From positions 5,445 through 69,444 of the forward strand of contig JBDRJV010000017.1 in NCBI GenBank assembly GCA_043814605.1: DNA of 64,000 nt. Direction: 5' to 3'. The notes beneath the pieces are model-generated. The model did not search any database, was not told the DNA's origin, and saw only the letters and a program-made list of their open reading frames with translations. The stretch is from Candidatus Omnitrophota bacterium (lineage in GTDB: Bacteria > Omnitrophota > Gorgyraeia > B26-G9). Shown piece by piece: positions 6,710 to 24,650 of the stretch; positions within the stretch are counted from its first letter, which is position 1; each line of letters opens with the position of its first letter. The position numbers and the translations under genes are program-made.

Positions 6710-6731
6710 TTTTAAATCAGAGGAGGGTTCT

Positions 6732-7846: not shown

Positions 7847-7868
7847 TTTTTTATAAAGGGTGGTTTAT

Positions 7869-8240: not shown

Positions 8241-8326
8241 ATGTTAAAAAATTTTAAAGCATTAAAGGTTTAATAATTATTCGCTGAATTATTTAAATAA
8301 TAACTATTATGGGGAAGAGATTTTAA

Positions 8327-8887: not shown

Positions 8888-8919
8888 AAATACTTAATTA
8901 TAAGGAGTAATAAAGTTTT

Positions 8920-9291
8920 ATGAGTAACCGCATACGCTGGATTGATTATAAGGGAAAAAAAATACTTGTGCACGATTATTCTGAACTTAAAGGATTTAAT
9001 AGGGGGGGAGAACAAGTTTTAAATGAAGTGTCTAATTTCATTGATAAATTAACTGAGAATAATATACTCGAATTAATTGATGTGAGAAATTCTTATGGCG
9101 ATTTAGACTCAATAAAAAAAATGAAGGAAATGTCCAAAAAAATGCAGCCGCATGTAAAGAAATGTGCAATAATCGGGGTGACGGGTGTAAAAAAAGTTCT
9201 TTTAGATACAATTAATGTTTTTTCCCAGCGCCAGATTAAACCGTTTGCCACAGAAGAGGAAGCCAAAGAATGGCTGGTGGCTGAGGATTAG
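8920..9291 (+). CDS. Cassette protein B3, STAS-like
   Basis: 123 aa with NSYGDLDS loop and C-terminal EEEAKEWLVAED. More diverged than B1/B2. Confidence 0.6.
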   Translation: MSNRIRWIDYKGKKILVHDYSELKGFNRGGEQVLNEVSNFIDKLTENNILELIDVRNSYGDLDSIKKMKEMSKKMQPHVKKCAIIGVTGVKKVLLDTINVFSQRQIKPFATEEEAKEWLVAED

Positions 9292-11158: not shown

Positions 11159-13345
11159 ATGATTAAAATTCGGATATTTAAAAGAGTTGTATCTATGATC
11201 TTACTGCAAGCCTTTTTGTTCGGGGCAGTTAGGTCAATCTATGTCTATGCTCAGGAACAGTCAATACTGAGTCCTCGAATAAGTTTGGGCCAGCCTGACT
11301 TGCAAACAGCAATGACCGAAAAAATGTCTTTAGCGCACTTTCCACCGTTAGATATTAGAGGAATAATAAAAGTAGGAAGAGGAGCAATAATATCAAAATC
11401 TTTGGTGACTAAAGAGGATCAAGCGTCCCAAGTTTTTTTTAAGAAAGCTTTACAGGGACTAGAACAGATCGAAACGATACAATGGTTTATAAATTTAAGA
11501 TGTGTTCTTAGATGCGATCACTGCTACTTAACACCAGAGCAGAAGAAAATGCCTCCTACCTCTTATCAGCAAGTATTAGATATTAGTAAAAAGATCAATA
11601 AACTCCCTGGGATTAAAGGAGTGGTAATTAACGGAGGGGAACCTTTTGCTAACCTTAAATTGATATATTTAGCATTAAAGGAATTAAAAGTACCAAAAAT
11701 AGGCCTTATGACTAGTGGTTTTTGGGCGAAAACACCTTTTATTACCAGTCGTGTTCTTGAAAATATAGTTAACGCTGCGGGAGATAAACACTTAGTTCTA
11801 CAAGTTAGTGTTAACGAATTTATTATGAAACAAAGAACCAAAAATAAAAAGCTTGGGTTTACTTTAGATAACTGGGTTAATATTATTAGGACTGTTGATG
11901 AACAATATTCTAAGAAAATTACTTTAGTGATTACATCTTTCTATAATGATCCAATATTCAATCAGTTAAAAAAGAAAATAGAGGACGAGGGTCTTAAAAT
12001 GCCTGAAGTCCGCAGATCAATAATGGAGTTTATTGGGCCAGCAGGAACCAACTTAGAGCGCAATGAATATAAGCAATGGGTTAATGTAGATAGCGCAGAC
12101 ATTTTTGTCCACAATAAATCTTTAGCAATCTATCCAGATGGGAAAGTAACTGTCGCTGCAGAGTTTTTAGGAGTATTAGAGGCAGGGAATATTTGTAAGC
12201 AGGGATTCCCAGACATTATTGATAATATTAATAAAGATTCATTATTCTACTTTGTTTTAACCAAGAAGGAACCAGCCAGACAATTATTAAGGATGGCTGC
12301 TCATTTTAACCCTGAGCTTGTAAATAAATGTAGCGATGAAATACTAGATGCTCCTAAAATTAGATTGCTGTTAGAAGATCCTATATTGAGATATTGTCTT
12401 AGAAAATTGGTGATTTGGAAGCTCTATAATGAACATGAACTTTTATTCATTGATGAAGATATGAAAAAATATGTCAACAAGCCTATTAGTGAGTTTATGT
12501 TGGAATTGGATAGAGAATACACTGGTCAAAAACAAGAAAAAGGAGAAGACGTAACCATAGTTAGTCTAAAAGATAAAATAATTATAGATTGGTTTGATAT
12601 TTCTAATCCAGCCACAGATTGGAAGAAAATATTTGGTAACAATAACAATCCCCAGGAACTTATAATTGGAAGTCTTTCGAGGTCTATGATCAAAGAAGCC
12701 CAAAAAAATCTTGCCAAGAATTATATCTGGGTTCAAACAATAAATCCTGCAGATACTACATATTTTATTGAGAAAGAAATTAGAGAAAAAAACATTCAAA
12801 ATGTCCGGTTAATCGATGCAGACATAAGAACGGCTATCCAGTCGATGTTTACCTTCGAGCAGATTTCTAATCTTTATGTATATTATACAGGAGCTGACAA
12901 ACGGATAGAAGAGTTTGAACGGCAAAAGTCAGGAGGAATGTATTATTCTGCTGATCCATATCTGCGGCATTTATATATAGAGATGCAGCAATCAGAATTG
13001 CAATATCCACCAAAAGGCTATTGGTTGGATTTTAGACAAGAAGGTTTATTACAGCGATTTTTAACCGTCATAAAAACAGGAGGTGTTTGTCATATCAGCA
13101 GCTGTGTTAGTGACTACATCGCTAGTGTTACCCGTATGATTGATTCTCATAAAATGGACATTCAGACTTTTGATAAGCCTAGTATGTTACCGGAAATAGG
13201 AGTCAACATAACTAATTATCTGGGGATTAGGAAAATACTACCTCTGAGTCCAAGTTGCTTAACGACCGCGAATGTTTCGATTCCTCAATTAAGAGCGAAC
13301 CCCGCTGGGACTTATCAATCGAAAATTATACAGAGTAGTATATAG
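11159..13345 (+). CDS. Atypical large radical SAM domain protein (728 aa) with N-terminal hydrophobic segment and ~450-aa C-terminal extension of unknown function
   Basis: CxxxCxxC motif CVLRCDHC at residues ~115-122, followed by a G-rich SAM-binding-like segment GVVINGGEPF. No SPASM/twitch Cys cluster seen. N-terminus MIKIRIFKRVVSMILLQAFLFGAV is hydrophobic. Confidence 0.75.
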   Translation: MIKIRIFKRVVSMILLQAFLFGAVRSIYVYAQEQSILSPRISLGQPDLQTAMTEKMSLAHFPPLDIRGIIKVGRGAIISKSLVTKEDQASQVFFKKALQGLEQIETIQWFINLRCVLRCDHCYLTPEQKKMPPTSYQQVLDISKKINKLPGIKGVVINGGEPFANLKLIYLALKELKVPKIGLMTSGFWAKTPFITSRVLENIVNAAGDKHLVLQVSVNEFIMKQRTKNKKLGFTLDNWVNIIRTVDEQYSKKITLVITSFYNDPIFNQLKKKIEDEGLKMPEVRRSIMEFIGPAGTNLERNEYKQWVNVDSADIFVHNKSLAIYPDGKVTVAAEFLGVLEAGNICKQGFPDIIDNINKDSLFYFVLTKKEPARQLLRMAAHFNPELVNKCSDEILDAPKIRLLLEDPILRYCLRKLVIWKLYNEHELLFIDEDMKKYVNKPISEFMLELDREYTGQKQEKGEDVTIVSLKDKIIIDWFDISNPATDWKKIFGNNNNPQELIIGSLSRSMIKEAQKNLAKNYIWVQTINPADTTYFIEKEIREKNIQNVRLIDADIRTAIQSMFTFEQISNLYVYYTGADKRIEEFERQKSGGMYYSADPYLRHLYIEMQQSELQYPPKGYWLDFRQEGLLQRFLTVIKTGGVCHISSCVSDYIASVTRMIDSHKMDIQTFDKPSMLPEIGVNITNYLGIRKILPLSPSCLTTANVSIPQLRANPAGTYQSKIIQSSI

Positions 13346-13964: not shown

Positions 13965-14003
13965 CAACCAAAGGGAGCGTAAGCCTTTTTGCGAATTTAT
14001 ATA
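13965..14003 (+). terminator. Intrinsic terminator (11-bp perfect stem AAGGCTTACGC/GCGTAAGCCTT + T-run)
   Basis: Read directly. Lies just downstream of the tRNA 3'-end repeat. Confidence 0.65.
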
Positions 14004-14294
14004 GAGGAAGCTTTTGCAACGAGATGACTCCAATGCTCATTTTTAGTGTCCGTAGGGGAAAACGTAGTTTTCCCCTTTCGGCGCTCACCATCCTCATGGG
14101 GCTCGCTGTCACCCCTTTCCCAGAGGACTATTGCTTTTCAAGGAAAGGGAAGAGTCTTATCCTCCCTTTCCTTGGTAACCATACCTACCTAAAAAGGTGT
14201 CGACTTCGTCGACCAATAATTAAAAAAATTTTAAAAAATATTTAACGATAACCCAAGTTAGTATCCTATTTTTAAGCGATGCTATTGATTAAAG

Positions 14295-15038
14295 TTGAAG
14301 AAATATGTTATAATAAAAGCTATGAAAAATAATAAATTATATAAAATAAAAGTCTTCCTGGTTTTACTAACTGTGAGTATTTTATTTGGGTTGTGTATTA
14401 AAAATGTCTACGCTGAGGTTAATGTAGGTGCAACCCGTGAGGAAATCATTGCAACTTTCGGACAACCTACAGGAACCATGAACAGCGGGGATGAAGAAAT
14501 ATTAACTTATCCCGGAGGATTAATTGTTTTACGTGATGGAGTTGTTCAAAGTATGGATGATAAATTTAGCGAACGCTTAGCAGCACGGAAAAAAGAAAAT
14601 GAATTTGAACAAAAACAGAAAAAAAACGGGTTTATACAGTATTTGGGCCAATGGGTTACCCCGCAAAAGAAAAAGAATATTGAAGTAAATAAAAAGTTGG
14701 AAAAGAAAATTTTTGTCTATTCACAGGGAGGGCAGGAAATTGCAATAAATGAGTTACTTGTGCCGGATAAAATTACCATTGTGGATTTTTATGCTGACTG
14801 GTGCGGGCCTTGTAAAGCCATGGGGCCTAAACTGGAAAAACTGGCACTCTCTGATCCTGATGTTTATTTAAGAAAAGTTAATATTATAAAATGGGGCACC
14901 CCGGTTACAAAACAGCATCGGATCAGGGCCATTCCGGATGTACGCGTATTTACACGCAAAGGATATTTACTGGGTAAACCAACACACAGCATTCAGGAAG
15001 TGGAGCAGTTCGTTAAAGAGGCAAAAGATATCCGTTGA
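14295..15038 (+). CDS. Exported thioredoxin-family protein (signal/TM anchor + C-terminal thioredoxin fold)
   Basis: N-terminal hydrophobic segment. WCGPCK active-site motif within a thioredoxin-like block. Confidence 0.75.
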   Translation: MKKYVIIKAMKNNKLYKIKVFLVLLTVSILFGLCIKNVYAEVNVGATREEIIATFGQPTGTMNSGDEEILTYPGGLIVLRDGVVQSMDDKFSERLAARKKENEFEQKQKKNGFIQYLGQWVTPQKKKNIEVNKKLEKKIFVYSQGGQEIAINELLVPDKITIVDFYADWCGPCKAMGPKLEKLALSDPDVYLRKVNIIKWGTPVTKQHRIRAIPDVRVFTRKGYLLGKPTHSIQEVEQFVKEAKDIR

Positions 15039-15254
15039 TATTTAACTTTAATTTTTTTTATGAAAAAACCCGCACGCCCCTCAGATCATGACTTTTGGTT
15101 TATTGCCCGCATCCGAAAAGAAAATTCCCAAAAAAAACTTAATAAACGCCAGCAAAAAATTTTATCAAAAGTTCGACTTTGGGAGAAATTTAACGGGGCA
15201 CTGGACCAAAAAAAATGGAACTTTTAACTAACCACTTATCTTACGGCTAAAAAA

Positions 15255-16517
15255 ATGGAGCAGAAAATACTAAAATTCCCAAAAAATTTTTACTGGGGGG
15301 CAAGCACCTCCGCGCATCAAGTTGAAGGCTGCAATAAAAATGACTGGTCGTTATGGGAAAAAACCCGTGCTTCAAAACTGGCCCAAAAAGCTAAAAACAA
15401 TTATGCCTATCTTAGCGATATTTGGCCGCATATAAAAGATCAGGCGGAAAAAGAGCAAAATTATATTTCCGGGCTGGCAATTGATCATTATCATAAATAC
15501 TGTGAAGATTTTGAACTCGCCAAATCATTAGGACTTAATGCCTACAGGTTCTCTTTGGAATGGTCAAGGATCCAGCCTCAACCAGATTATTTTGATCAAG
15601 CTGCAATAACACACTACCGGCAAATATTAATAAAATTAAAACAATTAGGTATTGAGCCGTTTGTTTGTCTTTGGCACTGGCCGCTGCCTGTTTGGATCAG
15701 CGAAAAAGGCGGCTGGCAACATCCCAAAACACTGGAATATTTTCAAAAATATGTGGAATTAATTTCCTCTGAATTTAAAATTGAGGTTAGATACTGGGTT
15801 ACGCTTAATGAACCGGTTATCTATAGTTATGAGTCATATTTTAAAGGTATTTGGCCTCCGGAGAAAAAAGGGTTGTTAAAATTTTTCCGAATCGTGAAAA
15901 AGCTAATAAAAGCACATAAATTTAGTTATGCCGTAATTAAAAAAAATATTCCGGAAGCAAAAATTGGGATTGCTAAAAATAATATCCATTTTGAAGCTAA
16001 ACATAATTTTTTTATAAATATTTTGATTAAAAAAATACTGGATTGGGGATGGAATAATTATTTTTTGCAAAAAATAAAAAACCATCAGGATTTTATTGGA
16101 CTCAACCACTATTTTCATAATTTAATCGATTGGGGACTAGATAAAAACGAAAATAAAATTGTCTCGGATTTAGGCTGGGAGTTGTATCCGGAAAGTATTT
16201 TTTATGTTTTAAGTGACTTGAAAAAATTTAAAAAACCAGTTTATATTTTAGAAAATGGTTTAGCGGATTTAAAAGATGAAAAAAGAAAGTGGTTTATCAA
16301 AGAAACTCTTCAGTCTGTGTATAAAGCTATTGATTCCGGAGTTGATGTGCAGGGTTATTTTCATTGGTCATTATTAGACAACTTTGAATGGGATAAGGGC
16401 TTTTGGCCAAGATTCGGATTGATTGAGGTCTTATACCCTAGCCTGGAAAGGAAAATAAGGCAGAGTGCTTTTTATTATGCTGAGATTATTAAGCAAAACG
16501 GGCTAGTCGTTGAATAG
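15255..16517 (+). CDS. Glycoside hydrolase family 1 (beta-glucosidase/beta-galactosidase-like)
   Basis: GH1 signatures: N-terminal FxWGxSTSAHQxEG, LNAYRFSLEWSRIQP, acid/base TLNEP, nucleophile ILENG. Confidence 0.85.
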   Translation: MEQKILKFPKNFYWGASTSAHQVEGCNKNDWSLWEKTRASKLAQKAKNNYAYLSDIWPHIKDQAEKEQNYISGLAIDHYHKYCEDFELAKSLGLNAYRFSLEWSRIQPQPDYFDQAAITHYRQILIKLKQLGIEPFVCLWHWPLPVWISEKGGWQHPKTLEYFQKYVELISSEFKIEVRYWVTLNEPVIYSYESYFKGIWPPEKKGLLKFFRIVKKLIKAHKFSYAVIKKNIPEAKIGIAKNNIHFEAKHNFFINILIKKILDWGWNNYFLQKIKNHQDFIGLNHYFHNLIDWGLDKNENKIVSDLGWELYPESIFYVLSDLKKFKKPVYILENGLADLKDEKRKWFIKETLQSVYKAIDSGVDVQGYFHWSLLDNFEWDKGFWPRFGLIEVLYPSLERKIRQSAFYYAEIIKQNGLVVE

Positions 16518-16610
16518 TAATTACTAACCGAAATCAAATTGATTTAATATGTTGATTATGCTAAACTAGGCTTAATAATAAAGTTATCCGTAAGAAAGTG
16601 ATGAGGAAAA

Positions 16611-17249
16611 ATGAGTTTACCGAAAGAAAGAATGATCCTAGGCATAATCTTAACAATTATCGGCGGAACAATACTAATTACCAGCTTAGTTTTTGGAATA
16701 ATTAAGCTTGCTAACGGCCGTTACGAAGACATAAACATTTTCTCGGCAAGATTAACCGCACAAAATAAAAAAATTAATGCCGGTACTTTTATTGCGAATG
16801 CCAATGAAAGCCTTTCTTTCTGGCTGAAAGTTCCGGATCGACGTATTGAAAATCGCGATTTTCTGCTTTCGGTGAGCATTGAGGATCAAAATAACCAGGC
16901 TCTGGCTACCTGGATGAACAATTTTTCTTTGGGGTCATTGCGTAACAGTTCCGGTTTCGGACAATATTATGGCTTAGGAACGCATTACTTTCATAACGAT
17001 TTAGTGGCAAATTTAACTTATAAAATTCAAGGACAGTGGATTGCGCCTTATAAAGGGTATTTGGTTATTCGGAAAACCCGGCCGCTTAAAATCCCGACAA
17101 AGCATATTCTTTGCTTTACTTTAGGAATCATAATTATTTTTAGCGGCGTAGGAATCATCATTAAAAATAAAAAAATTCTTCAACAGTGTGATAACCTCGA
17201 ACAATATCTAAAAAATGGAATTAATCGACAAAAAGTTCAAAAAAAATAA
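16611..17249 (+). CDS. Hypothetical membrane-anchored protein (N- and C-terminal TM)
   Basis: ORF with hydrophobic ends. No family recognised. Confidence 0.45.
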   Translation: MSLPKERMILGIILTIIGGTILITSLVFGIIKLANGRYEDINIFSARLTAQNKKINAGTFIANANESLSFWLKVPDRRIENRDFLLSVSIEDQNNQALATWMNNFSLGSLRNSSGFGQYYGLGTHYFHNDLVANLTYKIQGQWIAPYKGYLVIRKTRPLKIPTKHILCFTLGIIIIFSGVGIIIKNKKILQQCDNLEQYLKNGINRQKVQKK

Positions 17250-17718
17250 ATCAAAATACATAATACAGTGCTTGTTGGCAATCGTTGCTGTTTTTTGTGT
17301 ATTAATGCTGCTGGATATTAAATCAAATGCCGCAATTATCGCATCTTTAGGAGCGAGTGCTTTTATTGCTTTTACGCAGCCAGATGAACAGCGTTCTCAA
17401 CCGCGCTTTCTTGTCGGGGGATATATCGTCGGGATTATTTCCGGATGTATCTGTTATGGAATTTCTCAAATCATGCTGATTCAAAACATACATTTTTTTG
17501 GTACTTTCCTGATGCTATTTTTTTCTGCTTTTGCTGTAGGATTATCCATGTTTTTAATGGTTATCACCAACACAGAGCATCCGCCGGCAACGGGTTTGGC
17601 TTTAGGTCTTTTTCTTAACGGGTGTCAATTCCGTTCGATTATGGTTATTTTAATCGGAATTATCGCGTTATCTATTGTAAAAAAAATACTCAAACCTTTT
17701 TTGACAAATTTAATTTAA
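17215..17718 (+). CDS. HPP family membrane protein
   Basis: Four TM helices. Conserved EHPPATG motif. Confidence 0.65.
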   Translation: MELIDKKFKKNKSKYIIQCLLAIVAVFCVLMLLDIKSNAAIIASLGASAFIAFTQPDEQRSQPRFLVGGYIVGIISGCICYGISQIMLIQNIHFFGTFLMLFFSAFAVGLSMFLMVITNTEHPPATGLALGLFLNGCQFRSIMVILIGIIALSIVKKILKPFLTNLI

Positions 17719-17769
17719 TCTTACCGGTAAGATTAAAAATAATTTTAAAAATTAAAAGGTAGATTTTAG

Positions 17770-18876
17770 ATGAAAGTTACGCGGAGAAAATTTTTAAATA
17801 TTTGTTTAAATACCGGGGCTTGGCTTGCAACATCTAATATAACTAAATTAACTGCGCAGGAAAAATTAAAAGAGTCGCAATATTATCTTGTAAAAGATAA
17901 TCTACAGGTACAATGTATTAAATGCCCCTATCAATGCCTGATAAAAAATCACCAGCGGGGATTTTGCCGGGTGCGGGAAAATCAGGGTGGTAAACTTTAT
18001 AGCATAACCTATGCTAATCCCTGCGCTGTTCATGTTGATCCAATTGAAAAAAAACCGTTTTTTCATGTTTTACCTGGCTCTCAATCATACTCCATAGCAA
18101 CAGTGGGCTGTAACCTAAGATGTAAATTTTGCCAGAATTGGCAGATATCTCAGAGTGATCCTGAAGATATTAAAAGCGTTTATCTGGAACCTGAAGACAT
18201 TGTTGCCGGAGCGAGGCAAACTAAGTGTTTATCCATTGCCTATACATATACGGAACCGACTGTTTTTTATGAATATTGTTTGGACATTTCAAAAATTGCT
18301 CAGGGATACGGAATTAAAAATGTAATGCACTCTAATGGTTACATAAACCCGGATCCATTACGAAAATTAGTTAAACATTTAGATGCTGTTAATGTTGATT
18401 TAAAATCATTTTCTGATGATTATTACCAAAAAGTTTGTCAAGGCGATTTAACAACAGTAACGAATAGCCTTAAAATCATAAAGCAGGAATTAGGAGTATG
18501 GCTGGAGTTAACTAATTTAGTTGTGCCTACACTTAATGATTATCCGGACCAAATTAAAATGATGTGCGATTGGATTGTGCAGGAATTAGGGCAGGAAGTT
18601 CCTTTACACTTTTCGCGTTTTTATCCAACATATAAATTAAGCTCGCTCGCACCGACCCCGCTAAGTACTTTAGAAAAAGCTTATCAAATCGCAAAACAAG
18701 CCGGACTATACTTTGTTTATATCGGAAATGTACCGGGGCATAAAACAGAAAATACTTATTGTCCAGAATGTTCAAATATATTAATTGAACGTTCTGGATA
18801 TGTTGTCATTAAAAATTCAATAGGGAAAGGGGTATGCAGCAAATGCAGCAGAAATATACCGGGTATCTGGGCATAA
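17770..18876 (+). CDS. AmmeMemoRadiSam system radical SAM enzyme, with twin-arginine (Tat)-type N-terminal signal
   Basis: MKVTRRKFLN… matches S/T-RRxFLK. GCNLRCKFCQNWQIS radical-SAM cluster motif (PFL-activase-like). C-terminal CxxC…CxxC. Overall length and layout typical of this family. Confidence 0.8.
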   Translation: MKVTRRKFLNICLNTGAWLATSNITKLTAQEKLKESQYYLVKDNLQVQCIKCPYQCLIKNHQRGFCRVRENQGGKLYSITYANPCAVHVDPIEKKPFFHVLPGSQSYSIATVGCNLRCKFCQNWQISQSDPEDIKSVYLEPEDIVAGARQTKCLSIAYTYTEPTVFYEYCLDISKIAQGYGIKNVMHSNGYINPDPLRKLVKHLDAVNVDLKSFSDDYYQKVCQGDLTTVTNSLKIIKQELGVWLELTNLVVPTLNDYPDQIKMMCDWIVQELGQEVPLHFSRFYPTYKLSSLAPTPLSTLEKAYQIAKQAGLYFVYIGNVPGHKTENTYCPECSNILIERSGYVVIKNSIGKGVCSKCSRNIPGIWA

Positions 18877-20360
18877 AAAAAAGAAGGATTTTAACGATCT
18901 TGTTTTGTTTTACTCTGCTTTTGAATTTCTCAATTTTTAATCTAAGTGCCGCTGAATCCAAACTGATAAAAAAAGCCAATGTCAGCGGAACATTTTACCC
19001 GGCTCAAAAACAGGAACTTTCCGATTTAATCGACACTTTTTTAACTCAGACTCCGCAATTAAAACAACCCGGCCAACTCTGCGGCCTAATCAGCCCGCAT
19101 GCAGGATTAATTTACTCCGGGGCGGTTGCCGGTTACGGTTACAGTTTAATCAGAAATAAAAACTATAAAACAATTATTATTTTAGCGCCCAGCCATTACT
19201 TTCCGCTGGAAAAAGCAGCTACTTATCAAAAAGGATCTTTCCGCACACCCTTAGGTGATATCCCGGTTGATGAAGCTTTAATTGAAGAAATTATTACGAA
19301 AAACAAAAACATTGTTTACAATCCACAGGTTTTTGAGAGAGAACATTCACTGGAAGTTCAACTGCCATTTTTACAAAAATCTTTAAATAATTTTTCCCTC
19401 GTCCCGATTCTTTTGAGTAATCATTCTTTGGATTTATACCGCGAGCTGGCTCAGACATTGGCAGAGGTTATCAAAGAAAAAAATGACATATTAATCATCG
19501 CCAGTTCGGATATGTCCCATTTTCATCCCGATGAAAAAGCCAAGGAAATTGATAAACAAACTTTAAAATTAATCAAAAACGGAAAAGCAGAAGAACTGTT
19601 TAAGGGCTCAGTTTTGAAAAAAAATGAATTATGCGGTTTGTCCGGGGTCGTAACTTTAATGCTCACAATGGAAAAATTAGATGCAACTCAGATCGAAATT
19701 TTGCATTATGCCACGAGTGCGGATACGACAAATTCAGATAAAACAAGGGTTGTAGGATACAGTAGTATTGCTTTCTTTAAGCCACTGAATAAAGATGAAA
19801 ATAAAAAGGAGAAAAATAAAATGCTGACGCAAGCGCAAAAAAAAGAATTAATAATGCTGGCTAAAGATTCCATCAATCAATATGTAACTAGTAAAACTAA
19901 AATTATTCCGAAAACTACGGACATTTTGTTTTTAGAGCCGCGCGGTGCTTTTGTCACCCTACACAAAAATAAGAAACTGCGTGGTTGCATCGGCCGGATT
20001 ATTGCCGATAAACCTTTAATCAATGTAATTGCCGAAACGGCGGTTGAGGCCGCCACTGGTGATCCCCGTTTTCCCCCGGTTACGAAAAGCGAACTACCTG
20101 AGCTAGAACTTGAAATATCTGTACTTTCACCTTTAAAAGAGATTACGAATATTAATGAAATTGAAGTGGGAACACACGGAGTGATCATTCAAAAAGGGTT
20201 TAATTCCGGATTGCTCTTACCCCAGGTAGCCACGGAATACGGTTGGGATAGGGAAGAGTTTTTACAACATACCTGCCATAAAGCTGGTCTTGGGCCAAAT
20301 GCATGGCGAGAAAATGCACAAATTTATATTTTCAGTGCAGAAGTTTTTTCGGAAGAATAG
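18834..20360 (+). CDS. Fused MEMO1-like (AmmeMemoRadiSam protein B) + AMMECR1 (protein A) protein with N-terminal RR signal-like segment
   Basis: N-half: GTFYPAQ…LISPHAGLIYSG (MEMO/DUF52). C-half: …LRGCIGRI…GDPRFPPV…LLLPQVA (AMMECR1). N-terminus KKRRILTILFCFTLLLNFSIFNLSAAES. Overlaps the rSAM gene by 43 nt (start may be M5 at 18846). Confidence 0.8.
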   Translation: MQQMQQKYTGYLGIKKRRILTILFCFTLLLNFSIFNLSAAESKLIKKANVSGTFYPAQKQELSDLIDTFLTQTPQLKQPGQLCGLISPHAGLIYSGAVAGYGYSLIRNKNYKTIIILAPSHYFPLEKAATYQKGSFRTPLGDIPVDEALIEEIITKNKNIVYNPQVFEREHSLEVQLPFLQKSLNNFSLVPILLSNHSLDLYRELAQTLAEVIKEKNDILIIASSDMSHFHPDEKAKEIDKQTLKLIKNGKAEELFKGSVLKKNELCGLSGVVTLMLTMEKLDATQIEILHYATSADTTNSDKTRVVGYSSIAFFKPLNKDENKKEKNKMLTQAQKKELIMLAKDSINQYVTSKTKIIPKTTDILFLEPRGAFVTLHKNKKLRGCIGRIIADKPLINVIAETAVEAATGDPRFPPVTKSELPELELEISVLSPLKEITNINEIEVGTHGVIIQKGFNSGLLLPQVATEYGWDREEFLQHTCHKAGLGPNAWRENAQIYIFSAEVFSEE

Positions 20361-20440
20361 CAGCGTGAGATTATCCCGGTTTTTATCATAATCATTTAAA
20401 AATCCCGAATTATGATCAAATTTTAAAAATTGCTTTAAAA

Positions 20441-21622
20441 ATGCAGAAAACTAACCAAAAAATTAAGGTCCTCCATATAATAACCCGAATGATCATTGGC
20501 GGGGCACAGGAAAATACTTTAGATACAGTGATTGAATTAGGAAAAAATAAAAATTATGAAGTACAATTATTCTCAGGATACACATCTGGACCAGAAGGCA
20601 GTTTAATAAGTAAAGCTGTATCTAATTGCACATTAAAAATCTCTAAATTTTTAATCCGGGATATTAACCCGATTATGGATTTTATCGCTTTAATTCAATT
20701 ATATTTTTTTATTAAAAAAAATAAATTTGATATTGTTCATACGCACAGTTCAAAAGCAGGCATTTTAGGCAGATTTGCAGCAAAATTAGCAAAAACACCC
20801 ATAATTATCCATACTGTTCATGGCCTGCCTTTTTTTAAAGCACAAAATAAAATATTAAATAAAATCTACTTATTACTGGAAAAAATTACGGCACGTTTTA
20901 CGCATAAAATTATTTGCGTCAGCCCCTCGCTTATAGAAGATGCGGTAAGCGCCGGAGTGGGGAAACGGGAAAAATTTGTTAGTGTATATAGCGGTATTGA
21001 ACTGGAGAAATTTAAAAAAAATGTTAGAGAAAAACAAACGCTCAGAAAAAAACTCGGCTTTTCAGAACATGATATAGTTATTGGCAATTTAAGCCGGCTA
21101 TTTACTCATAAAGGCCATGAATTTTTACTGCAAGCGGCAAAAATTATCATGCAAAAATATCCGAAGACAAAACTGCTTTTAATCGGTGATGGAATTTTAA
21201 GGAATAAATTAAAAATTTTAGCCGGAAACTTGAGGATTGAGAAAAATATTGTGTTTACCGGGTTAATTGTTCCGGGAAAAGTTCCCCAATATTTACAAAT
21301 TATAGATATTCTTATGCACACATCTTTACATGAAGGGCTGCCTCGCGCCGCAGTTCAAGCATTCGCTTTAGAAATCCCCGTTATTGGCTTTGATATAGAC
21401 GGAACACGCGATGTTATAAAAAATAATGTGAATGGGTTTCTTATTGCCCCTAAAAATGTGGCCGGTTTAGCCGCGGCAGCTTTAAAACTTATGGAAAATA
21501 GAAAACTGGCACAAAGAATGGGCAAGCAGGGGGCTGATTTTGTCCGGGATGTTTTTAATTTAAAAACCATGATTGCTTCCATCGATTTTATCTATCAGGA
21601 TTTACGATTATGTGGGAAATAG
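20441..21622 (+). CDS. Glycosyltransferase family 4 (GT-B fold)
   Basis: N-terminal GGAQE…, C-terminal E-x7-E-like region (…HTSLHEGLPRAAVQAFALEIPVIG). Confidence 0.8.
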   Translation: MQKTNQKIKVLHIITRMIIGGAQENTLDTVIELGKNKNYEVQLFSGYTSGPEGSLISKAVSNCTLKISKFLIRDINPIMDFIALIQLYFFIKKNKFDIVHTHSSKAGILGRFAAKLAKTPIIIHTVHGLPFFKAQNKILNKIYLLLEKITARFTHKIICVSPSLIEDAVSAGVGKREKFVSVYSGIELEKFKKNVREKQTLRKKLGFSEHDIVIGNLSRLFTHKGHEFLLQAAKIIMQKYPKTKLLLIGDGILRNKLKILAGNLRIEKNIVFTGLIVPGKVPQYLQIIDILMHTSLHEGLPRAAVQAFALEIPVIGFDIDGTRDVIKNNVNGFLIAPKNVAGLAAAALKLMENRKLAQRMGKQGADFVRDVFNLKTMIASIDFIYQDLRLCGK

Positions 21623-22683
21623 CCTATTACTATATTTTTTTATTTGGATTAATCTGTTCTTATTTATTTGTGCTTTTTTTTAAAAAAATTGCTTTGCGTT
21701 TTAATATTGTTGATTTTCCGGATAAGGAACGAAAAACTCACAAGTATCCTATTCCACTTTTAGGCGGCGTAGGCATGTTTATTGCCTATCTGAGCACAAT
21801 TACAGTTAATTTATTTTTGCTCCTATATTTACATCAACAAAACCTGCTTCCGCAAGAAATTTCTTTACATCTTGCGGGAGTTTTTTCTGTTTTAAGAATT
21901 CTCAGTGTCTTGGTCATCTGTACTTTAGCTATGGTAACTGTGGGACTCATTGATGATCTGAGAAAAATATCTGCAAAGTTTAAATTAGTTCTAGAGGTAA
22001 TTTTATGCTGTATTCTCTTTTTTAACGGAATAAAAATTAGTTTATTTATTGATAATCAAATTTTCCAGGTGGTTTTAACCTTTTTTTGGATAATTGGCAT
22101 TACCAATGCTTTTAACCTTTTGGATAATATGGACGGATTATGTGCATTAACTGCATTAATCAGCAGCACTATTTTCTTAATCTGGTCATTAATTAGTTCT
22201 CAAATTTTTATGGTATTAATACTGGCTTGTTTTTGCGGTGTGCTTTCAGGGTTTTTGTTTTTTAATTTTCCTCCGGCTAAAATATTTATGGGAGATGCGG
22301 GAAGCTTATTTATTGGCTTCACTTTAAGCATTTTAACTATTCTTAATACCTATTATTTACCTTCAGCTAAAAAAGCAATTATCGTAATTATGCCGCTGGT
22401 AATTATGGCTATTCCCATATTTGATACAATTTCAGTAATTATTATCCGAATTAAAAATAGAAAATCAATTTTTACTGCGGATAAAAATCATTTATCTCAC
22501 CGCCTGATCAAAAAAGGAATGTCTGAAAAGCAGTCCCTGGCTTTTATTTGTTTAATAAATACTTGTATTGGGCTGGGAGCGCTTATGTTTTTCTGGGTCA
22601 AGATGCGCTCGGGCACTCTTATTTTAATTCAAGCAATATGTATTGTCTTGATCATCTTAATTTTCGCGAGGATGAAAAAATGA
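21610..22683 (+). CDS. Polyprenyl-phosphate N-acetylhexosamine-1-phosphate transferase (WecA/MraY/TagO family)
   Basis: Multi-TM. NAFNLLDNMDGL signature, plus a second conserved Asp-containing block (MGDAGSLFIG). Confidence 0.8.
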   Translation: MWEIAYYYIFLFGLICSYLFVLFFKKIALRFNIVDFPDKERKTHKYPIPLLGGVGMFIAYLSTITVNLFLLLYLHQQNLLPQEISLHLAGVFSVLRILSVLVICTLAMVTVGLIDDLRKISAKFKLVLEVILCCILFFNGIKISLFIDNQIFQVVLTFFWIIGITNAFNLLDNMDGLCALTALISSTIFLIWSLISSQIFMVLILACFCGVLSGFLFFNFPPAKIFMGDAGSLFIGFTLSILTILNTYYLPSAKKAIIVIMPLVIMAIPIFDTISVIIIRIKNRKSIFTADKNHLSHRLIKKGMSEKQSLAFICLINTCIGLGALMFFWVKMRSGTLILIQAICIVLIILIFARMKK

Positions 22684-24650
22684 GTGTTTTGATTTTCTGT
22701 CTCTTACTGGTCGGGGTGTGTTTTTGTTGGTTAGTATTTAGAAGACTACCTCAATTAAATACACTCGAACGCATGATTTTAATTTTAACTTTCGCAATAT
22801 TGTTTTTTAGGCCAATTATGGGAGATGCCTTTTTCACGGGCGTTAATACTTTTTTTTTAATTTCGGTTTTATTCGCCGCGTTATTATTACTGATCAATAA
22901 AACAGTAAAATTAAATTCAAAGAAAGCATCGTTAAATAGTGCAGACACCTCTGATTTTTATTTTTTACAAACCTTTGAATTTAACAATTTTTTATTTATC
23001 ATTACCTTATTCATCGCCTTAAAATTTTCGGCCAGTCTGAACAGCGGATTAAACCAGCTATTAAATTGGTTCATGCTTTTTATATTTTATTTAACTCTAA
23101 AGTGTACAATAAATAATAAACAAAATATAAACTGGCTGTTCTTCTGTTTAGGCGCCTCGGCTGTAATGGTCACAAGTTACGGAATATATCAATATGCCTA
23201 CGGATTTAATATCCTGCGTGAGTTTTTAAAAAACAATTCCGCGCTGATGAATTACAGTCCTGATTTCCTGCGCAGACTTTCTGCAAATACTATTTTTTCC
23301 ACTTTTGTTTATGCCCCGGCATTTGCTGGCTATTTGAATATGATTTTTTTTAGTTTTTTAGGTTATTTATTTTATTTAAAGGAAAAACCTGATTTAGATA
23401 AAAAAGAGAAAGCCGTTTCAATATTTTTAATTATATATTTATTCATAATAATTCCGGTTTTAATTCTTACTGAATCAAAAGGAGGGTGGTTTTCTTTTCT
23501 TTTTGCTTTAGCAATCTTCATTCGGCTGGGATTAAGAAACCATCTAAAAGAACTGATCAAAATTTTTATCTTGGCTTTTACGGCAATACTCCTGGTTGGT
23601 TTTCTCAGTTTTAGAATTTTTCCTAAAATAAAATTTCCTGAAATTAATAACTTTTTGTTATCGCTTGATGTAAGAATTGAATATTGGAAAGCAGCGATCA
23701 ATATGATTCTTGAAAAACCCGTTTGGGGGTGGGGACCGGGTTGTTTTAGTTTTATTTATCCCCTGTTTAAAACAAAATTGGCCGAAGAAACAATTATGGC
23801 GCATAACAGTTATTTACAGATCTGGGCAGAAGGAGGCATATTTAGTTTTACAATTTTTATCTGGCTGTGGATTAATTTTATCCTGCAAGGCATTAAAATC
23901 ATCCATAAAACTCTTACCAGCAGATTTATTTTAATCGGACTCTATTGCGCGGTGATTTCTTTTTTAGCCCATAATTTTATTGACTTTGGTTTCTATGAAT
24001 CGCAAACTGCTTTAATCGCCTATGCACTTGTGGCATTGTTTTTTTTAACAACTAATATTTTTGATCCAAACATAAATAAAGATCTTAAAATTAATAATAT
24101 TTTTAAAACTAAAGCACTCCTGACTGCGGCAATGTTAATTATTGTTTTTACGCTTTTTTATGCCGGTTTAAAATATAGCGGTGAAATCTATACTTTTAAA
24201 TTTCATCAGGCAATCAGCAGAAATAAACCCGAACTTGCCCTGGGATTTATCCGCAAAGCCTCAAAACTTGACCCCTTAAACTCTGATTATGTTTTTAAAC
24301 AAGCATTATTGCAAGAGTCACTTTATTTTAATAAACAAAAAAAACTTTCCTTTAAAAGCAGCAGCCTTCCTGAAATTATTTTATTATATAAAAAAGCGAT
24401 CCGCCTGAATCCTTATATCGCTTATTACCATTTTCGTTTGGGAGAATTTTTAATGCAAACTGATGCATTAGCAAATAAAGATGAAGCACTTTATCACTAT
24501 ATTCGCGCTAAAGAAATTTACCCGTTAAAACCGTTTTATCATGAACAAATCGCGCGAGTTTATGATATAATAGGCAATAAGGAATTATCAGCTTACGAAA
24601 AAAGTATTGCTGAATATCTCCGCCAATTTTACTTTACCGGAACAAAATAA
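22680..24650 (+). CDS. O-antigen ligase (Wzy_C)-like polytopic membrane protein with C-terminal TPR repeats
   Basis: ≥10 TM helices. Wzy_C-like loop (…HNSYLQIWAEGG…). TPR-like C-terminal ~200 aa. Start moved from 22548 to ATG 22680 (ATGA overlap with upstream stop). Confidence 0.65.
   Translation: MSVLIFCLLLVGVCFCWLVFRRLPQLNTLERMILILTFAILFFRPIMGDAFFTGVNTFFLISVLFAALLLLINKTVKLNSKKASLNSADTSDFYFLQTFEFNNFLFIITLFIALKFSASLNSGLNQLLNWFMLFIFYLTLKCTINNKQNINWLFFCLGASAVMVTSYGIYQYAYGFNILREFLKNNSALMNYSPDFLRRLSANTIFSTFVYAPAFAGYLNMIFFSFLGYLFYLKEKPDLDKKEKAVSIFLIIYLFIIIPVLILTESKGGWFSFLFALAIFIRLGLRNHLKELIKIFILAFTAILLVGFLSFRIFPKIKFPEINNFLLSLDVRIEYWKAAINMILEKPVWGWGPGCFSFIYPLFKTKLAEETIMAHNSYLQIWAEGGIFSFTIFIWLWINFILQGIKIIHKTLTSRFILIGLYCAVISFLAHNFIDFGFYESQTALIAYALVALFFLTTNIFDPNINKDLKINNIFKTKALLTAAMLIIVFTLFYAGLKYSGEIYTFKFHQAISRNKPELALGFIRKASKLDPLNSDYVFKQALLQESLYFNKQKKLSFKSSSLPEIILLYKKAIRLNPYIAYYHFRLGEFLMQTDALANKDEALYHYIRAKEIYPLKPFYHEQIARVYDIIGNKELSAYEKSIAEYLRQFYFTGTK

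What the first reader, a model, noticed from the sequence alone, without database searches (positions are those of the whole stretch)
17770..20360. AmmeMemoRadiSam system predicted to be exported: Tat-type signal on the radical SAM enzyme and RR signal-like N-terminus on a MEMO1–AMMECR1 fusion
The radical SAM protein starts MKVTRRKFLN + mildly hydrophobic h-region + LTA|QE, a near-consensus twin-arginine signal, appropriate for exporting a folded Fe-S protein. The downstream gene fuses the MEMO1-like and AMMECR1 domains, which are usually separate A and B proteins. It begins KKRRILTILFCFTLLLNFSIFNLSAAES, also signal-like. The genes overlap by 43 nt. The AmmeMemoRadiSam system has no established function. 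A periplasmic or membrane-external location, where SAM and low-potential reductant are not obviously available, would be unusual and would constrain ideas about its substrate.
Basis: partly seen in the sequence, partly recalled or inferred. Interest (0 to 1): 0.6.

Follow-up and report, generated by a model that had tools for sequence, protein, structure and literature searches.

The report
Exported radical-SAM MEMO/AMMECR1 enzyme pair
Two overlapping genes of an Omnitrophota bacterium encode an iron-sulfur "radical SAM" enzyme with a textbook Tat export signal and a MEMO-AMMECR1 partner with an ordinary secretion signal; a whole branch of this widespread system of unknown function does the same, which points to radical chemistry outside the cytoplasm.

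Summary
ORF 17770-18876 is an AmmeMemoRadiSam radical SAM enzyme (TIGR04337, 380 bits). Its only possible N-terminus is MKVTRRKFLN, followed by a weakly hydrophobic stretch and LTA|QE. ORF 18843-20360 is a MEMO+AMMECR1 fusion with a strongly hydrophobic Sec-type signal; its RR is not conserved, so it is not a Tat signal.

The signals are not chance. About 115 of 119 close homologs of the enzyme carry a Tat-type or Sec/TM-type N-terminus. 108 distinct N-termini give the logo [LI][ST]-R-R-[ED]-F-[LI]-K. Signal-bearing enzymes form one coherent subfamily, roughly a third of the 150 nearest 50%-identity representatives, found in more than 15 phyla, with the catalytic residues intact.

Partner proteins carry signals when the enzyme does. 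Related loci add periplasm-directed electron modules (DsbD_2, NapH-like, FMN_bind) as neighbours or as fusions whose topology places the radical SAM domain outside. tatA and tatC lie beside the gene in two relatives, one of them an Omnitrophota.

Best reading: the enzyme is loaded with clusters in the cytoplasm and exported by Tat, the partner goes through Sec, and both act in the periplasm. The sources of SAM and electrons are unresolved. Nothing here is experimental. I found no publication describing this.

The parts
17770..18876 (+). Radical SAM enzyme of the AmmeMemoRadiSam system, 368 aa, exported (Tat) subfamily
   Evidence: TIGR04337 379.7 bits, PF04055. 100% identical to NCBI protein P0001 from a Ca. 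Omnitrophota MAG. AF2 pLDDT 92; best solved fold is PFL-activating enzyme, 3CB8/8FO0.
17770..17856 (+). Predicted Tat signal peptide, aa 1-29 (MKVTRRKFLNICLNTGAWLATSNITKLTA|QE). The twin-arginine motif T-R-R-K-F-L-N is at nt 17779-17799.
   Evidence: TAG directly upstream and no alternative start. The motif is conserved in orthologs, logo [LI][ST]RR[ED]F[LI]K over 108 N-termini. In the AF2 model it is a lone helix (aa 5-27) followed by a low-confidence linker, with the core starting at about aa 33. The cleavage site is inferred from alignment with the ..AQE.LKEA c-regions of homologs; SignalP was not available.
17914..17967 (+). N-terminal auxiliary Cys motif C49-x2-C52-x3-C56...C66
   Evidence: Invariant in 35 exported homologs and at least 90% conserved in both exported and canonical family members.
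18109..18132 (+). Radical SAM cluster motif C114-x3-C118-x2-C121
   Evidence: Invariant. Lies inside the PF04055 match.
18760..18846 (+). C-terminal Cys4 motif (C331, C334, C356, C359), a ribbon-like metal or cluster site
   Evidence: Conserved in at least 90% of both exported and canonical members.
18843..20360 (+). MEMO (protein B) + AMMECR1 (protein A) fusion, 505 aa (508 aa if ATG 18834 is used). Overlaps the radical SAM gene by 34 nt (or 43).
   Evidence: TIGR04336 274.8 bits, TIGR04335 192.6 bits, PF01875, PF01871. P0121 is 100% identical with the start at 18843. AF2 pLDDT 92. Closest PDB sequence relatives are PH0010/MM0484 (AMMECR1) and human MEMO1.
18843..18953 (+). Predicted Sec-type signal peptide, aa 1-37 (MQQKYTGYLGIKKRRILTILFCFTLLLNFSIFNLSAA|ES)
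   Evidence: 12-residue KD mean 2.9. 109 of 120 orthologs have a hydrophobic signal ending a few residues before the conserved K-x-P-N-V-S-G-x-F-Y-P, and 18 have a lipobox-like motif. AF2 shows a lone helix at aa 6-34 followed by a low-confidence linker. Codon ATA 18873 sits where orthologs have the ATG of an ATGA start/stop overlap.
18972..19775 (+). Memo domain
   Evidence: PF01875 1.4e-64. Invariant residues include H86, H118, D223, H226, C264 in 505-aa numbering.
19845..20348 (+). AMMECR1 domain
   Evidence: PF01871 2.1e-58. Invariant R380-G-C-I-G384.
14295..15038 (+). Exported thioredoxin-like protein (signal peptide, WCGPC). Possibly associated, low confidence.
   Evidence: PF00085. Orthologs at 45-48% identity lie 2-3 kb upstream of the system in L083, L084 and L085.
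16611..17249 (+). 212-aa protein with N- and C-terminal hydrophobic segments and no family match. Possibly associated.
   Evidence: Orthologs (52% and 42% identity) lie directly upstream of the radical SAM gene in L085 and L086. No Pfam or NCBIfam hit.
17215..17718 (+). HPP-family membrane protein directly upstream. Possibly associated.
   Evidence: PF04982 3.9e-21. Same position in L083 and L084.

Best explanation
The two overlapping genes are a complete AmmeMemoRadiSam system belonging to an exported subfamily.

Shown by sequence and comparison:
- The radical SAM enzyme has a PFL-activase-like core, the CX3CX2C cluster and two further Cys4 sites. It carries an obligatory canonical twin-arginine signal.
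- The MEMO-AMMECR1 fusion carries a classical Sec-type signal.
- Both features are conserved across a phylogenetically coherent, multi-phylum branch of the family in which the catalytic residues are intact.

Inferred:
- The enzyme folds and receives its Fe-S clusters in the cytoplasm and is moved across the membrane by TatABC. The signal is probably cut after LTA29.
- The partner is threaded through Sec and cut after SAA37.
- The two then act together in the periplasm, or at the outer face of the inner membrane, on an envelope or extracytoplasmic substrate.

In relatives, electrons reach the enzyme through co-encoded or fused transmembrane modules (DsbD_2, NapH-like CX3CP proteins, flavinylatable FMN_bind domains, Tat-signal DUF362 proteins). 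In the window's own subclade the only candidate is a conserved exported thioredoxin.

How SAM is supplied is unknown. The options are pre-binding before Tat export, use as a regenerated cofactor or for a single turnover, or a dedicated supply route.
For: 1. Family assignment and obligatory N-terminus.
2. N-termini of homologs. Of 119 close homologs (52-63% identity), about 32-34 are Tat-type, 82 are Sec/TM-type and only 3-4 have none. The two classes separate cleanly on hydrophobicity (median 1.4 versus 3.1). The N-flank is net positive and the C-flank neutral, which predicts N-in/C-out.
3. Genome survey. 80 genome loci from more than 15 phyla plus the window gave 82 enzyme genes: 54 Tat-like, 17 Sec/TM and 11 none, of which 4 are truncated ORFs.
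4. Tat logo from 108 distinct N-termini: S/T 54% at -1, RR 82% (KR 18%), F 82%, L/I 86%, K 56%.
5. Coherent subfamily. The exported state needs 3 changes on a neighbour-joining tree of 94 cores, against about 32 in shuffles. 40 catalytic or structural positions, including all 11 Cys, are at least 90% conserved in both exported and canonical forms.
6. Partner co-variation. The MEMO+AMMECR1 partner has a signal in about 30 of 31 loci where the enzyme has one. Three loci have a signal on neither. 109 of 120 orthologs of the fusion carry signals, and some carry lipoboxes.
7. Neighbours. DsbD_2 is a neighbour in 15 of 17 Sec/TM loci against 1 of 54 Tat loci. DUF362 proteins, mostly with their own Tat-like signals, are neighbours in 17 of 54 Tat loci against 0 of 17. 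Long forms are DsbD_2+FMN_bind+Fer4_5, i.e. NapH/NosR-like.
8. Fusion proteins. FMN_bind-rSAM occurs with no TM segment between the two domains (P0255, P0265). In FMN_bind-6TM-rSAM proteins the CX3CP and K/R-rich loops lie inside, so the radical SAM domain is outside (P0242, P0247, P0263). Signal-propeller-rSAM and signal-CBM11-rSAM fusions also occur. NapH-like/FMN_bind modules are established extracytosolic electron-transfer devices (PMC8238504).
9. Tat genes. tatA and tatC lie 2.3 kb from the gene in an Omnitrophota (L010). In L024 the order is tatA-tatC-tatA-rSAM, with only a few bases between tatA2 and the rSAM start.
10. AF2 models show both N-termini as detached helices followed by low-confidence linkers.
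Against: - There is no experimental localisation. No dedicated signal predictor (SignalP, TatP, DeepTMHMM) could be run; my classifiers are heuristic.
- No SAM pool or sufficiently low-potential reductant is known in the periplasm (own knowledge).
- The window itself lacks the DsbD_2, NapH-like, DUF362 and SPDS-like neighbours seen elsewhere.
- In two Desulfobacterota loci (L025, L028) the separate A protein, and in L028 the B protein (cut at the contig end), lack signals although the enzyme has a Tat signal.
- The Sec/TM-type relatives imply translocation of an unfolded Fe-S domain. No cluster-insertion route is known for that, so part of the comparative picture is itself unexplained.
- The association statistics ignore phylogenetic non-independence.
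Confidence: 0.7

Rival explanations
1. The N-terminal segments are translocated but not cleaved. They act as signal anchors, so both proteins are tethered to the outer face of the cytoplasmic membrane rather than being soluble in the periplasm. This would suit a lipid-linked or membrane-embedded substrate.
For: - In the Sec/TM class the uncharged segment is about 20 residues long and carries a conserved L-[RK]-L-I...C-F-Y-L-P pattern, more like a TM helix than a generic h-region.
- In fusion proteins the equivalent segment is a genuine TM helix.
- Some partner proteins are lipoproteins.
- Tat-inserted N-terminal anchors exist, for example Rieske proteins (own knowledge).
Against: The window's enzyme has a weakly hydrophobic h-region (KD about 1.2) followed by a conserved small-residue c-region (..LTA|QE, aligned with ..AQE in homologs). 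That is typical of cleaved Tat signals and a poor stable anchor.
Confidence: 0.15
2. The enzyme does its radical SAM chemistry in the cytoplasm, where SAM and reduced ferredoxin or flavodoxin exist. There it could modify itself, a bound small molecule or a partner. It is then exported by Tat as a spent or structural component, possibly carrying a cargo by hitchhiking.
For: - It removes the SAM and reductant problem.
- Tat exports folded complexes (own knowledge).
- In L025 and L028 the A/B proteins lack signals while the enzyme has one.
- Known radical SAM maturases of exported products work before export, e.g. the HXS system (PMC13128918).
Against: - The partner in the window and in about 30 other loci has its own Sec signal and would cross the membrane unfolded. 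A cytoplasmic complex is therefore not expected.
- Relatives couple the exported domain to periplasm-directed electron-transfer modules, which argues for redox turnover outside.
Confidence: 0.1
3. The twin-arginine peptide is a non-exporting remnant, or a chaperone-binding or membrane-association peptide like the vestigial Tat motif of NarG. The radical SAM enzyme stays on the cytoplasmic side and only the MEMO-AMMECR1 protein is exported.
For: Vestigial Tat signals on cytoplasmic enzymes are known (own knowledge). No Tat genes were seen in the window.
Against: - The full n/h/c architecture, with a canonical consensus including the F, L and K positions, is conserved over many phyla.
- The Tat class switches with a Sec/TM class at the same position.
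- The enzyme and its obligate partner would end up in different compartments.
- Fusion topologies place the domain outside.
- tat genes are adjacent in L010 and L024.
Confidence: 0.06
4. Annotation artefact: the true start lies downstream and the signal-like peptide is not translated.
For: None beyond general caution about start calls in MAGs.
Against: - A stop codon directly precedes ATG 17770.
- There is no in-frame ATG, GTG or TTG before the conserved core (family model position 2 = residue 37; first invariant Cys at 49).
- Orthologs conserve the peptide.
Confidence: 0.01

Closest known systems
AmmeMemoRadiSam system (NCBIfam/TIGRFAMs TIGR04337 radical SAM enzyme, TIGR04336 protein B/MEMO, TIGR04335 protein A/AMMECR1), canonical form
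   Same: All three family models are matched well above cutoff. The genes are adjacent and overlapping. All conserved Cys and core residues are shared with canonical members.
   Different: - Canonical members start at M-K-E-A with no N-terminal extension. This holds for about 95 of the 150 nearest 50%-identity representatives, including signal-less triple fusions.
- Here the enzyme has a Tat signal and the fused A/B partner a Sec signal.
- The exported forms make a separate branch.
Pyruvate formate-lyase activating enzyme and other glycyl-radical activases
   Same: Best solved structural match (3CB8, 3C8F, 8FO0; TM-score 0.75-0.81 over the target) and best non-family HMM hits (NrdG, YjjW, PflA).
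   Different: - 15-18% identity.
- Extra N-terminal Cys4 and C-terminal Cys4 modules.
- No glycyl-radical enzyme partner. The invariant [RK]-V-V-G-Y in the Memo domain lies inside a core beta-strand in the AF2 model, not in a Gly loop.
- The known activases are cytoplasmic (own knowledge).
Tat-exported Fe-S proteins (Rieske proteins, NapG/HybA-type ferredoxins, hydrogenase small subunits)
   Same: Canonical S/T-R-R-x-F-L-K motif, a weakly hydrophobic h-region, and a cofactor-bearing passenger that must fold before export (family knowledge is my own).
   Different: The passenger is a radical SAM enzyme, which needs SAM and a very low-potential electron donor. In the papers I could search, no radical SAM enzyme is described as a Tat substrate.
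NapH-like / NosR-like / FMN_bind (ApbE-flavinylated) and DsbD-type extracytosolic electron-transfer modules (Meheust et al. 2021, PMC8238504)
   Same: In relatives of the window's enzyme these modules are adjacent or fused, and they carry the SGAT flavinylation motif and CX3CP motifs.
   Different: They are not present in the window. The paper's main text does not mention Memo, AMMECR1 or radical SAM partners.
Radical SAM maturases of exported products (e.g. HxsB/C of the HXS anti-phage system, PMC13128918)
   Same: A radical SAM enzyme linked to a periplasmic end point.
   Different: In that system the enzymes lack signal peptides and are proposed to act in the cytoplasm before the product is exported. 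Here the enzyme itself carries the export signal.

Membership tests
AmmeMemoRadiSam system | Radical SAM protein scoring above the TIGR04337 cutoff, with a CX3CX2C motif | tested here: met
   379.7 bits against cutoff 220. C114, C118 and C121 are invariant.
AmmeMemoRadiSam system | Protein B (MEMO family, TIGR04336) present | tested here: met
   274.8 bits against cutoff 26; PF01875 1.4e-64.
AmmeMemoRadiSam system | Protein A (AMMECR1 family, TIGR04335) present | tested here: met
   192.6 bits against cutoff 99; PF01871 2.1e-58. Fused to protein B.
AmmeMemoRadiSam system | The three components encoded together | tested here: met
   The genes overlap by 34 (or 43) nt. The same order, with an ATGA overlap, is seen in L081 and L083-L086.
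Tat (twin-arginine) substrates | N-terminal S/T-R-R-x-F-L-K motif | tested here: met
   T-R-R-K-F-L-N at aa 4-10. Conserved logo in 108 homologous N-termini.
Tat (twin-arginine) substrates | Moderately hydrophobic h-region, less hydrophobic than in Sec signals | tested here: met
   12-residue KD mean about 1.2 in the window. Class medians are 1.4 (Tat) and 3.1 (Sec/TM).
Tat (twin-arginine) substrates | Signal-peptidase c-region (small residues at -3/-1) | tested here: inconclusive
   L-T-A|Q-E aligns with ..AQE.. in homologs, and -1 is Ala, but -3 is Leu. No SignalP or TatP was available.
Tat (twin-arginine) substrates | Passenger needs cytoplasmic cofactor insertion or folding | tested here: met
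   Three conserved Cys clusters (11 Cys).
Tat (twin-arginine) substrates | TatA/TatC machinery encoded in the same genome | not testable with these tools
   - None in the 64-kb window.
- The contig is not in the gene-position index.
- TatA and TatC are confirmed next to the ortholog in an Omnitrophota MAG (L010) and in L024.
- A TatC homolog search was uninformative.
Tat (twin-arginine) substrates | Tat-dependent export shown experimentally | not testable with these tools
   Needs reporter fusions or cell fractionation.
Sec-type secretory signal (MEMO-AMMECR1 fusion) | Positively charged n-region, strongly hydrophobic h-region, A-x-A-like c-region just before the mature domain | tested here: met
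   KKRR / ILTILFCFTLLLNFSIF / NLSAA|ES; KD 2.9. 109 of 120 orthologs are alike, and RR is not conserved.
Glycyl-radical enzyme activase / glycyl-radical enzyme pair | Partner protein with an RVxG[FWY] Gly-loop fingerprint at an exposed hairpin | tested here: not met
   [RK]-V-V-G-Y is invariant in the Memo domain. In the AF2 model it lies within core strand E303-314 at pLDDT about 98. No glycyl-radical enzyme domain was found.

The most novel reading that the evidence does not exclude
A complete radical SAM system turns over outside the cytoplasmic membrane. That would require an extracytoplasmic source of S-adenosylmethionine, or a SAM molecule carried through Tat and reused, together with a low-potential periplasmic electron supply. 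In the Sec/TM-type sister clade it would also require Fe-S cluster insertion outside the cytoplasm, possibly assisted by the co-encoded DsbD_2, NapH-like and FMN_bind modules. A polytopic membrane protein with a periplasm-facing spermidine-synthase-like (SAM/dcSAM-fold) domain, encoded nearby in about half of the loci surveyed (45 of the 82 enzyme genes counted), could belong to the same extracytoplasmic SAM-related chemistry. The substrate would then be an envelope component, which would give the first handle on what MEMO and AMMECR1 proteins do.
Probability: 0.45. Interest if true: 0.88.

Novelty: new variant of a known kind. Interest (0 to 1): 0.72.

Why it matters
- Radical SAM enzymes are treated as strictly cytoplasmic, because they need SAM, Fe-S assembly and a very low-potential reductant. 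A large, conserved, multi-phylum branch with canonical export signals and intact catalytic residues challenges that view.
- The data give concrete test objects: signal-reporter fusions, and natural FMN_bind-rSAM and DsbD_2-rSAM fusion proteins.
- MEMO1 and AMMECR1 are conserved from bacteria to humans and are linked to disease, yet have no agreed biochemical function. Knowing that one bacterial branch works in the cell envelope, wired to transmembrane electron conduits, narrows the substrate search to envelope lipids, glycans or proteins. It also offers comparative contrasts with the cytoplasmic branch.
- The clean split between Tat-type enzymes without DsbD_2 and Sec/TM-type enzymes with DsbD_2 is a natural experiment on how cofactor-bearing proteins reach the periplasm.

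Tried and rejected
1. A downstream start codon for ORF1. None exists before the conserved core.
2. Tat-type signal on the fusion protein. The RR is not conserved (1 of 109) and the h-region is Sec-like.
3. Glycyl-radical hypothesis (PFL-AE-like enzyme plus invariant RVVGY in Memo). The motif sits in a buried core strand in the AF2 model.
4. Looking up the window's own contig to find the rest of the genome and its tat genes. P0001 is not in the gene-position index.
5. Motif scan for tatA and tatC in the window. None found.
6. Third homolog search, using the L010 TatC fragment, to show Tat across Omnitrophota. It returned only unnamed short fragments and was uninformative.
7. Searching the window for the neighbour families seen elsewhere (SPDS-like membrane protein, DsbD_2, DUF362). 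Absent.
8. The downstream glycosyltransferase, WecA-like and Wzy_C genes (20441-24650) as functional partners. They are absent at this position in the syntenic loci L083 and L084, so they are an insertion.
9. Promoter and terminator scan of 14000-21000. Promoter-like sites were fewer than in shuffles and terminator-like sites about as many.
10. PDB sequence search with the enzyme. No hit at E <= 0.001.
11. Literature:
 - Only 6 papers mention AmmeMemoRadiSam, none on function or location.
 - Nothing relevant for radical SAM plus twin-arginine or Tat signal.
 - Nothing for Omnitrophota plus twin-arginine.
 - Burroughs et al. 2019 (JBC, PMC6664185), the main comparative study of Memo systems, is not held. 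I cannot exclude that it notes signal peptides.
 - The supplement of PMC8238504 was truncated and gave nothing.
 - One look-up by a guessed PubMed id fetched an unrelated paper.


Full report
WHAT IS THERE

The window (34% G+C) carries two overlapping + strand ORFs at the stated place.

ORF1 (17770-18876, 368 aa) scores 379.7 bits on TIGR04337, the AmmeMemoRadiSam radical SAM enzyme (cutoff 220). The match starts at residue 37, so residues 1-36 lie outside the family model. ORF2 contains Memo (TIGR04336/PF01875) and AMMECR1 (TIGR04335/PF01871) in one chain. Both proteins are 100% identical to NCBI proteins from a Candidatus Omnitrophota MAG on a 73.5-kb contig.

START CODONS

A TAG codon directly precedes ATG 17770. 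No in-frame ATG, GTG or TTG occurs before the first invariant cysteine, C49. MKVTRRKFLN... is therefore necessarily the N-terminus.

For ORF2, NCBI and the GGGAAAGGGG Shine-Dalgarno-like run favour ATG 18843 (505 aa, 34-nt overlap) over ATG 18834 (43 nt). In orthologs the partner gene starts with the ATG of an ATGA start/stop overlap (L083, L084). The window has ATAA at the homologous position (ATA 18873). The start has probably moved 10-13 codons upstream, which lengthens the n-region and leaves the signal intact (inference).

ARE THE SIGNALS REAL?

ORF1 has T-R-R-K-F-L-N, a weakly hydrophobic h-region (12-residue Kyte-Doolittle mean about 1.2) and L-T-A|Q-E. ORF2 has KKRR, a strongly hydrophobic 17-residue core (KD 2.9) and S-A-A|E-S. 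Apart from ORF2, no other ORF of at least 100 aa in the window has an RR motif followed by an h-region.

Conservation settles the matter:
- Among the 119 best homologs of ORF1 that could be scored (52-63% identity), about 32-34 have Tat-type N-termini, 82 have Sec/TM-type and 3-4 have none.
- The two classes separate cleanly on hydrophobicity, with medians of 1.4 and 3.1.
- Their c-regions align (window KLTAQEKLKES; P0061 LRAQEKLKEA).
- 108 distinct N-termini, aligned on the arginines, give [LI]-[ST]-R(82%)/K-R-[ED]-F(82%)-[LI](86%)-K(56%). The S/T and K positions were not part of my search pattern.
- For ORF2, all 120 best hits are Memo+AMMECR1 fusions. 109 have a hydrophobic signal that ends a few residues before the conserved K-x-P-N-V-S-G-x-F-Y-P. 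18 have lipobox-like motifs. Only the window's protein has RR followed by hydrophobic residues.

The fusion's signal is therefore Sec-type, and fusion of the A and B proteins is normal in this clade.

HOW WIDE IS IT?

A scan of one genome per species found at least 597 relatives. The best 80 loci come from Omnitrophota, Planctomycetota, Acidobacteriota, Bacteroidota, Ignavibacteriota, Desulfobacterota, Zixibacteria, KSB1, Verrucomicrobia, Lentisphaerae, Myxococcota, Elusimicrobia, Chlamydiae and others. Counting 82 enzyme genes in these loci plus the window, 54 are Tat-like, 17 are Sec/TM-like and 11 have no signal; 4 of the 11 are truncated ORFs.

An exhaustive search of 1.84 billion 50%-identity representatives gave 1,559 family members at E <= 1e-30. 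Of the best 150:
- about 95 start directly at the core (M-K-E-A);
- about 28-31 are Tat-type;
- about 17 have Sec/TM signals or larger N-terminal modules.

On a neighbour-joining tree of 94 catalytic cores the exported/non-exported character needs 3 changes, against about 32 when labels are shuffled. Forty core positions, including all eleven cysteines and the Y160-x-E162-P163 motif, are at least 90% conserved in both groups. This is a coherent, old, catalytically intact exported subfamily with a Tat subclade and a Sec/TM subclade.

INDEPENDENT LINES POINTING OUTSIDE

(a) Partner co-variation. Where the enzyme has a signal, the adjacent Memo+AMMECR1 fusion has one in about 30 of 31 loci. Three Bacteroidales loci (L055, L059, L067) have a signal on neither.

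(b) Neighbours.
- DsbD_2 membrane proteins accompany 15 of 17 Sec/TM-type enzymes but 1 of 54 Tat-type enzymes.
- DUF362 proteins, mostly with their own Tat-like signals, accompany 17 of 54 Tat-type and 0 of 17 Sec/TM-type enzymes.
- These p-values ignore shared ancestry.
- Long DsbD_2 forms add FMN_bind and NapH/NosR-like Fer4_5 domains.
- These are established modules for moving electrons to extracytosolic enzymes (PMC8238504).

(c) Fusion proteins.
- P0255 and P0265 have one N-terminal TM segment, an FMN_bind domain with the SGAT flavinylation motif, and then the radical SAM domain with no TM segment in between.
- P0242, P0247 and P0263 have FMN_bind, then six TM segments whose CX3CP-bearing, K/R-rich loops alternate on the inside, then the radical SAM domain. 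This places it on the FMN_bind side.
- The last TM segment in those proteins corresponds to the Sec/TM N-terminus of the stand-alone enzymes.
- P0241 and P0251 have a signal, then a beta-propeller or CBM11 domain, then the radical SAM domain.

(d) Tat genes. TatA (PF02416) and TatC (PF00902) lie 2.3 kb from the Tat-type gene in an Omnitrophota MAG (L010). In L024 the order is tatA-tatC-tatA-rSAM-Memo/AMMECR1, with only a few bases between tatA2 and the rSAM start.

(e) Structure. AF2 models (pLDDT 92 for both proteins) show each N-terminus as a lone helix joined to the core by a low-confidence linker.

LOCAL CONTEXT

The window is syntenic with L083 and L084 (57-60% identical enzymes). The shared order is exported thioredoxin (WCGPC; 45-48% identity), HPP membrane protein, rSAM, Memo/AMMECR1, DHquinase_II. 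A 212-aa protein with hydrophobic ends (16611-17249) recurs directly upstream of the enzyme gene in L085 and L086.

The GT1, WecA-like and Wzy_C genes downstream (20441-24650) are missing from that position in the syntenic loci and are not part of the system. The SPDS-like, DsbD_2 and DUF362 neighbours of other loci are absent from the window.

MOST LIKELY MECHANISM

The enzyme's best solved structural relative is pyruvate formate-lyase activating enzyme (TM-score 0.75-0.81, 15-18% identity). Two extra Cys4 sites flank the core.

I propose the following; the steps after the sequence features are inferred.
1. Clusters are inserted in the cytoplasm.
2. TatABC exports the folded holo-enzyme, and the signal is cleaved near A29.
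3. The Memo-AMMECR1 protein is exported through Sec and cleaved near A37.
4. The two act together in the periplasm or at the membrane's outer face.

Relatives show that electrons are delivered by dedicated transmembrane modules. The window's subclade offers only the exported thioredoxin, whose redox potential is probably too high to reduce a radical SAM cluster directly (own knowledge). The SAM source is open.

RIVALS
- Uncleaved anchors. The proteins would still be outside. This is plausible, especially for the Sec/TM clade.
- Chemistry before export, then export of a spent or cargo-carrying enzyme. This solves the SAM problem and fits L025 and L028, where the A/B proteins lack signals. It fits poorly with Sec-exported partners and periplasm-directed electron modules.
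- A vestigial, non-exporting Tat peptide. This is contradicted by the conserved full signal architecture, the switching between signal classes, the fusion topologies and the adjacent tat genes.
- A start-codon artefact. Refuted by the sequence.

UNEXPLAINED

Sec/TM-type enzymes, and the polytopic fusions, imply that an unfolded Fe-S domain crosses the membrane. No periplasmic Fe-S assembly route is known. The near-exclusive DsbD_2 association may relate to keeping the eleven cysteines reduced or to supplying metal, but that is speculation.

COMPARISON AND NOVELTY

The pair is a bona fide member of the AmmeMemoRadiSam system, with all defining features met. It differs from the canonical form in predicted location. 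It meets the sequence criteria for a Tat substrate. The machinery in this genome and actual export could not be tested. It works like a PFL-activase-type radical SAM enzyme but is not a glycyl-radical activase pair: the RVVGY motif lies in a buried strand.

In the searchable literature I found no description of an exported or Tat-dependent radical SAM enzyme, or of export signals in this system. The usual picture is cytoplasmic maturation followed by export of the product (PMC13128918). The key comparative paper on Memo systems (Burroughs et al. 2019) could not be read, and automatic database annotations probably already flag these signals.

I rate the finding a new variant of a known kind, interest about 0.72.

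Noticed in passing
L001-L080 (e.g. L022:6631-8778, L010:6122-8368): A polytopic membrane protein of about 715 aa with a central spermidine-synthase-like domain (PF01564; NF037959-like fused MFS/spermidine synthase) is encoded nearby for about half of the enzyme genes counted (45 of 82; 32 of the 54 Tat-type and 8 of the 17 Sec/TM-type). By the positive-inside rule the soluble domain faces the periplasm in 29 of 33 sequences. It keeps the Gly-rich loop, the ribose-binding Glu and a conserved Asp, so a second SAM/dcSAM-fold domain may sit outside. It is absent from the window.
   Followed up: partly
L003-L006, L011, L012, L015, L022, L038, L042, L054, L071; proteins P0242, P0245, P0247, P0255, P0259, P0263, P0265: Sec/TM-type radical SAM enzymes are almost always next to, or fused with, DsbD_2 (GPCxxxCGP in TM1), FMN_bind and NapH-like Fer4_5 modules. 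This implies an Fe-S radical SAM domain translocated without Tat, which nothing known explains.
   Followed up: partly
L024:3978-6073; L010:8419-8932: tatA-tatC-tatA lie immediately upstream of, and apparently co-transcribed with, a Tat-signal radical SAM gene and its Memo/AMMECR1 gene in L024 (a MAG labelled Altiarchaeota). tatA and tatC lie 2.3 kb downstream of the ortholog in an Omnitrophota MAG (L010).
   Followed up: yes
L008:3676-6125: Two AmmeMemoRadiSam radical SAM paralogs sit side by side, the first without a signal and the second with an SRRDFLKK Tat signal.
   Followed up: no
L025, L028 (Syntrophobacterales / Thermodesulfobacteriota): The enzyme has a Tat signal (SRREFLG), but the separate AMMECR1 protein, and in L028 the Memo protein (cut at the contig end), show no signal. 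Possible Tat hitchhiking, or a different arrangement.
   Followed up: partly
window 18873-18876: ATAA sits where orthologs have the ATGA start/stop overlap between the two genes. The partner gene's start seems to have shifted to ATG 18843 or 18834, which lengthens the n-region of its signal peptide.
   Followed up: yes
window 19746-19760 (aa 302-306 of the 505-aa fusion): An invariant [RK]-V-V-G-Y in the Memo domain resembles the glycyl-radical fingerprint RVxG[FWY]. In the AF2 model it lies in a buried core strand, so it is probably structural.
   Followed up: yes
window 6149-9291: Three tandem copies of a gene pair: DUF2378 (186 aa) followed by a SpoIIAA-like protein (123-126 aa), downstream of a HAMP histidine kinase (4423-6057).
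   Followed up: no
window 11159-13345: A 728-aa protein with an N-terminal radical SAM domain and a weak C-terminal methyltransferase-like match. Unrelated to the system as far as seen.
   Followed up: no
window 20441-24650: A GT1-family glycosyltransferase, a WecA/MraY-like GT4 and a Wzy_C (O-antigen ligase-like)+TPR protein are inserted between the system and DHquinase_II, relative to the syntenic loci L083 and L084.
   Followed up: partly
P0289, P0300, P0305, P0306, P0311, P0313, P0316 and others: About 16 of the 150 nearest representatives are triple fusions of 900-1150 aa (rSAM-AMMECR1-MEMO) without signals. These are single-chain cytoplasmic versions of the whole system.
   Followed up: no
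L018, L026, L032-L035, L037, L058, L061, L074: DUF362 proteins, most with their own twin-arginine N-termini (e.g. MRRRAFFK, SRREFLKK), lie directly upstream of Tat-type radical SAM genes. DUF6599 proteins also recur in four of these loci.
   Followed up: partly
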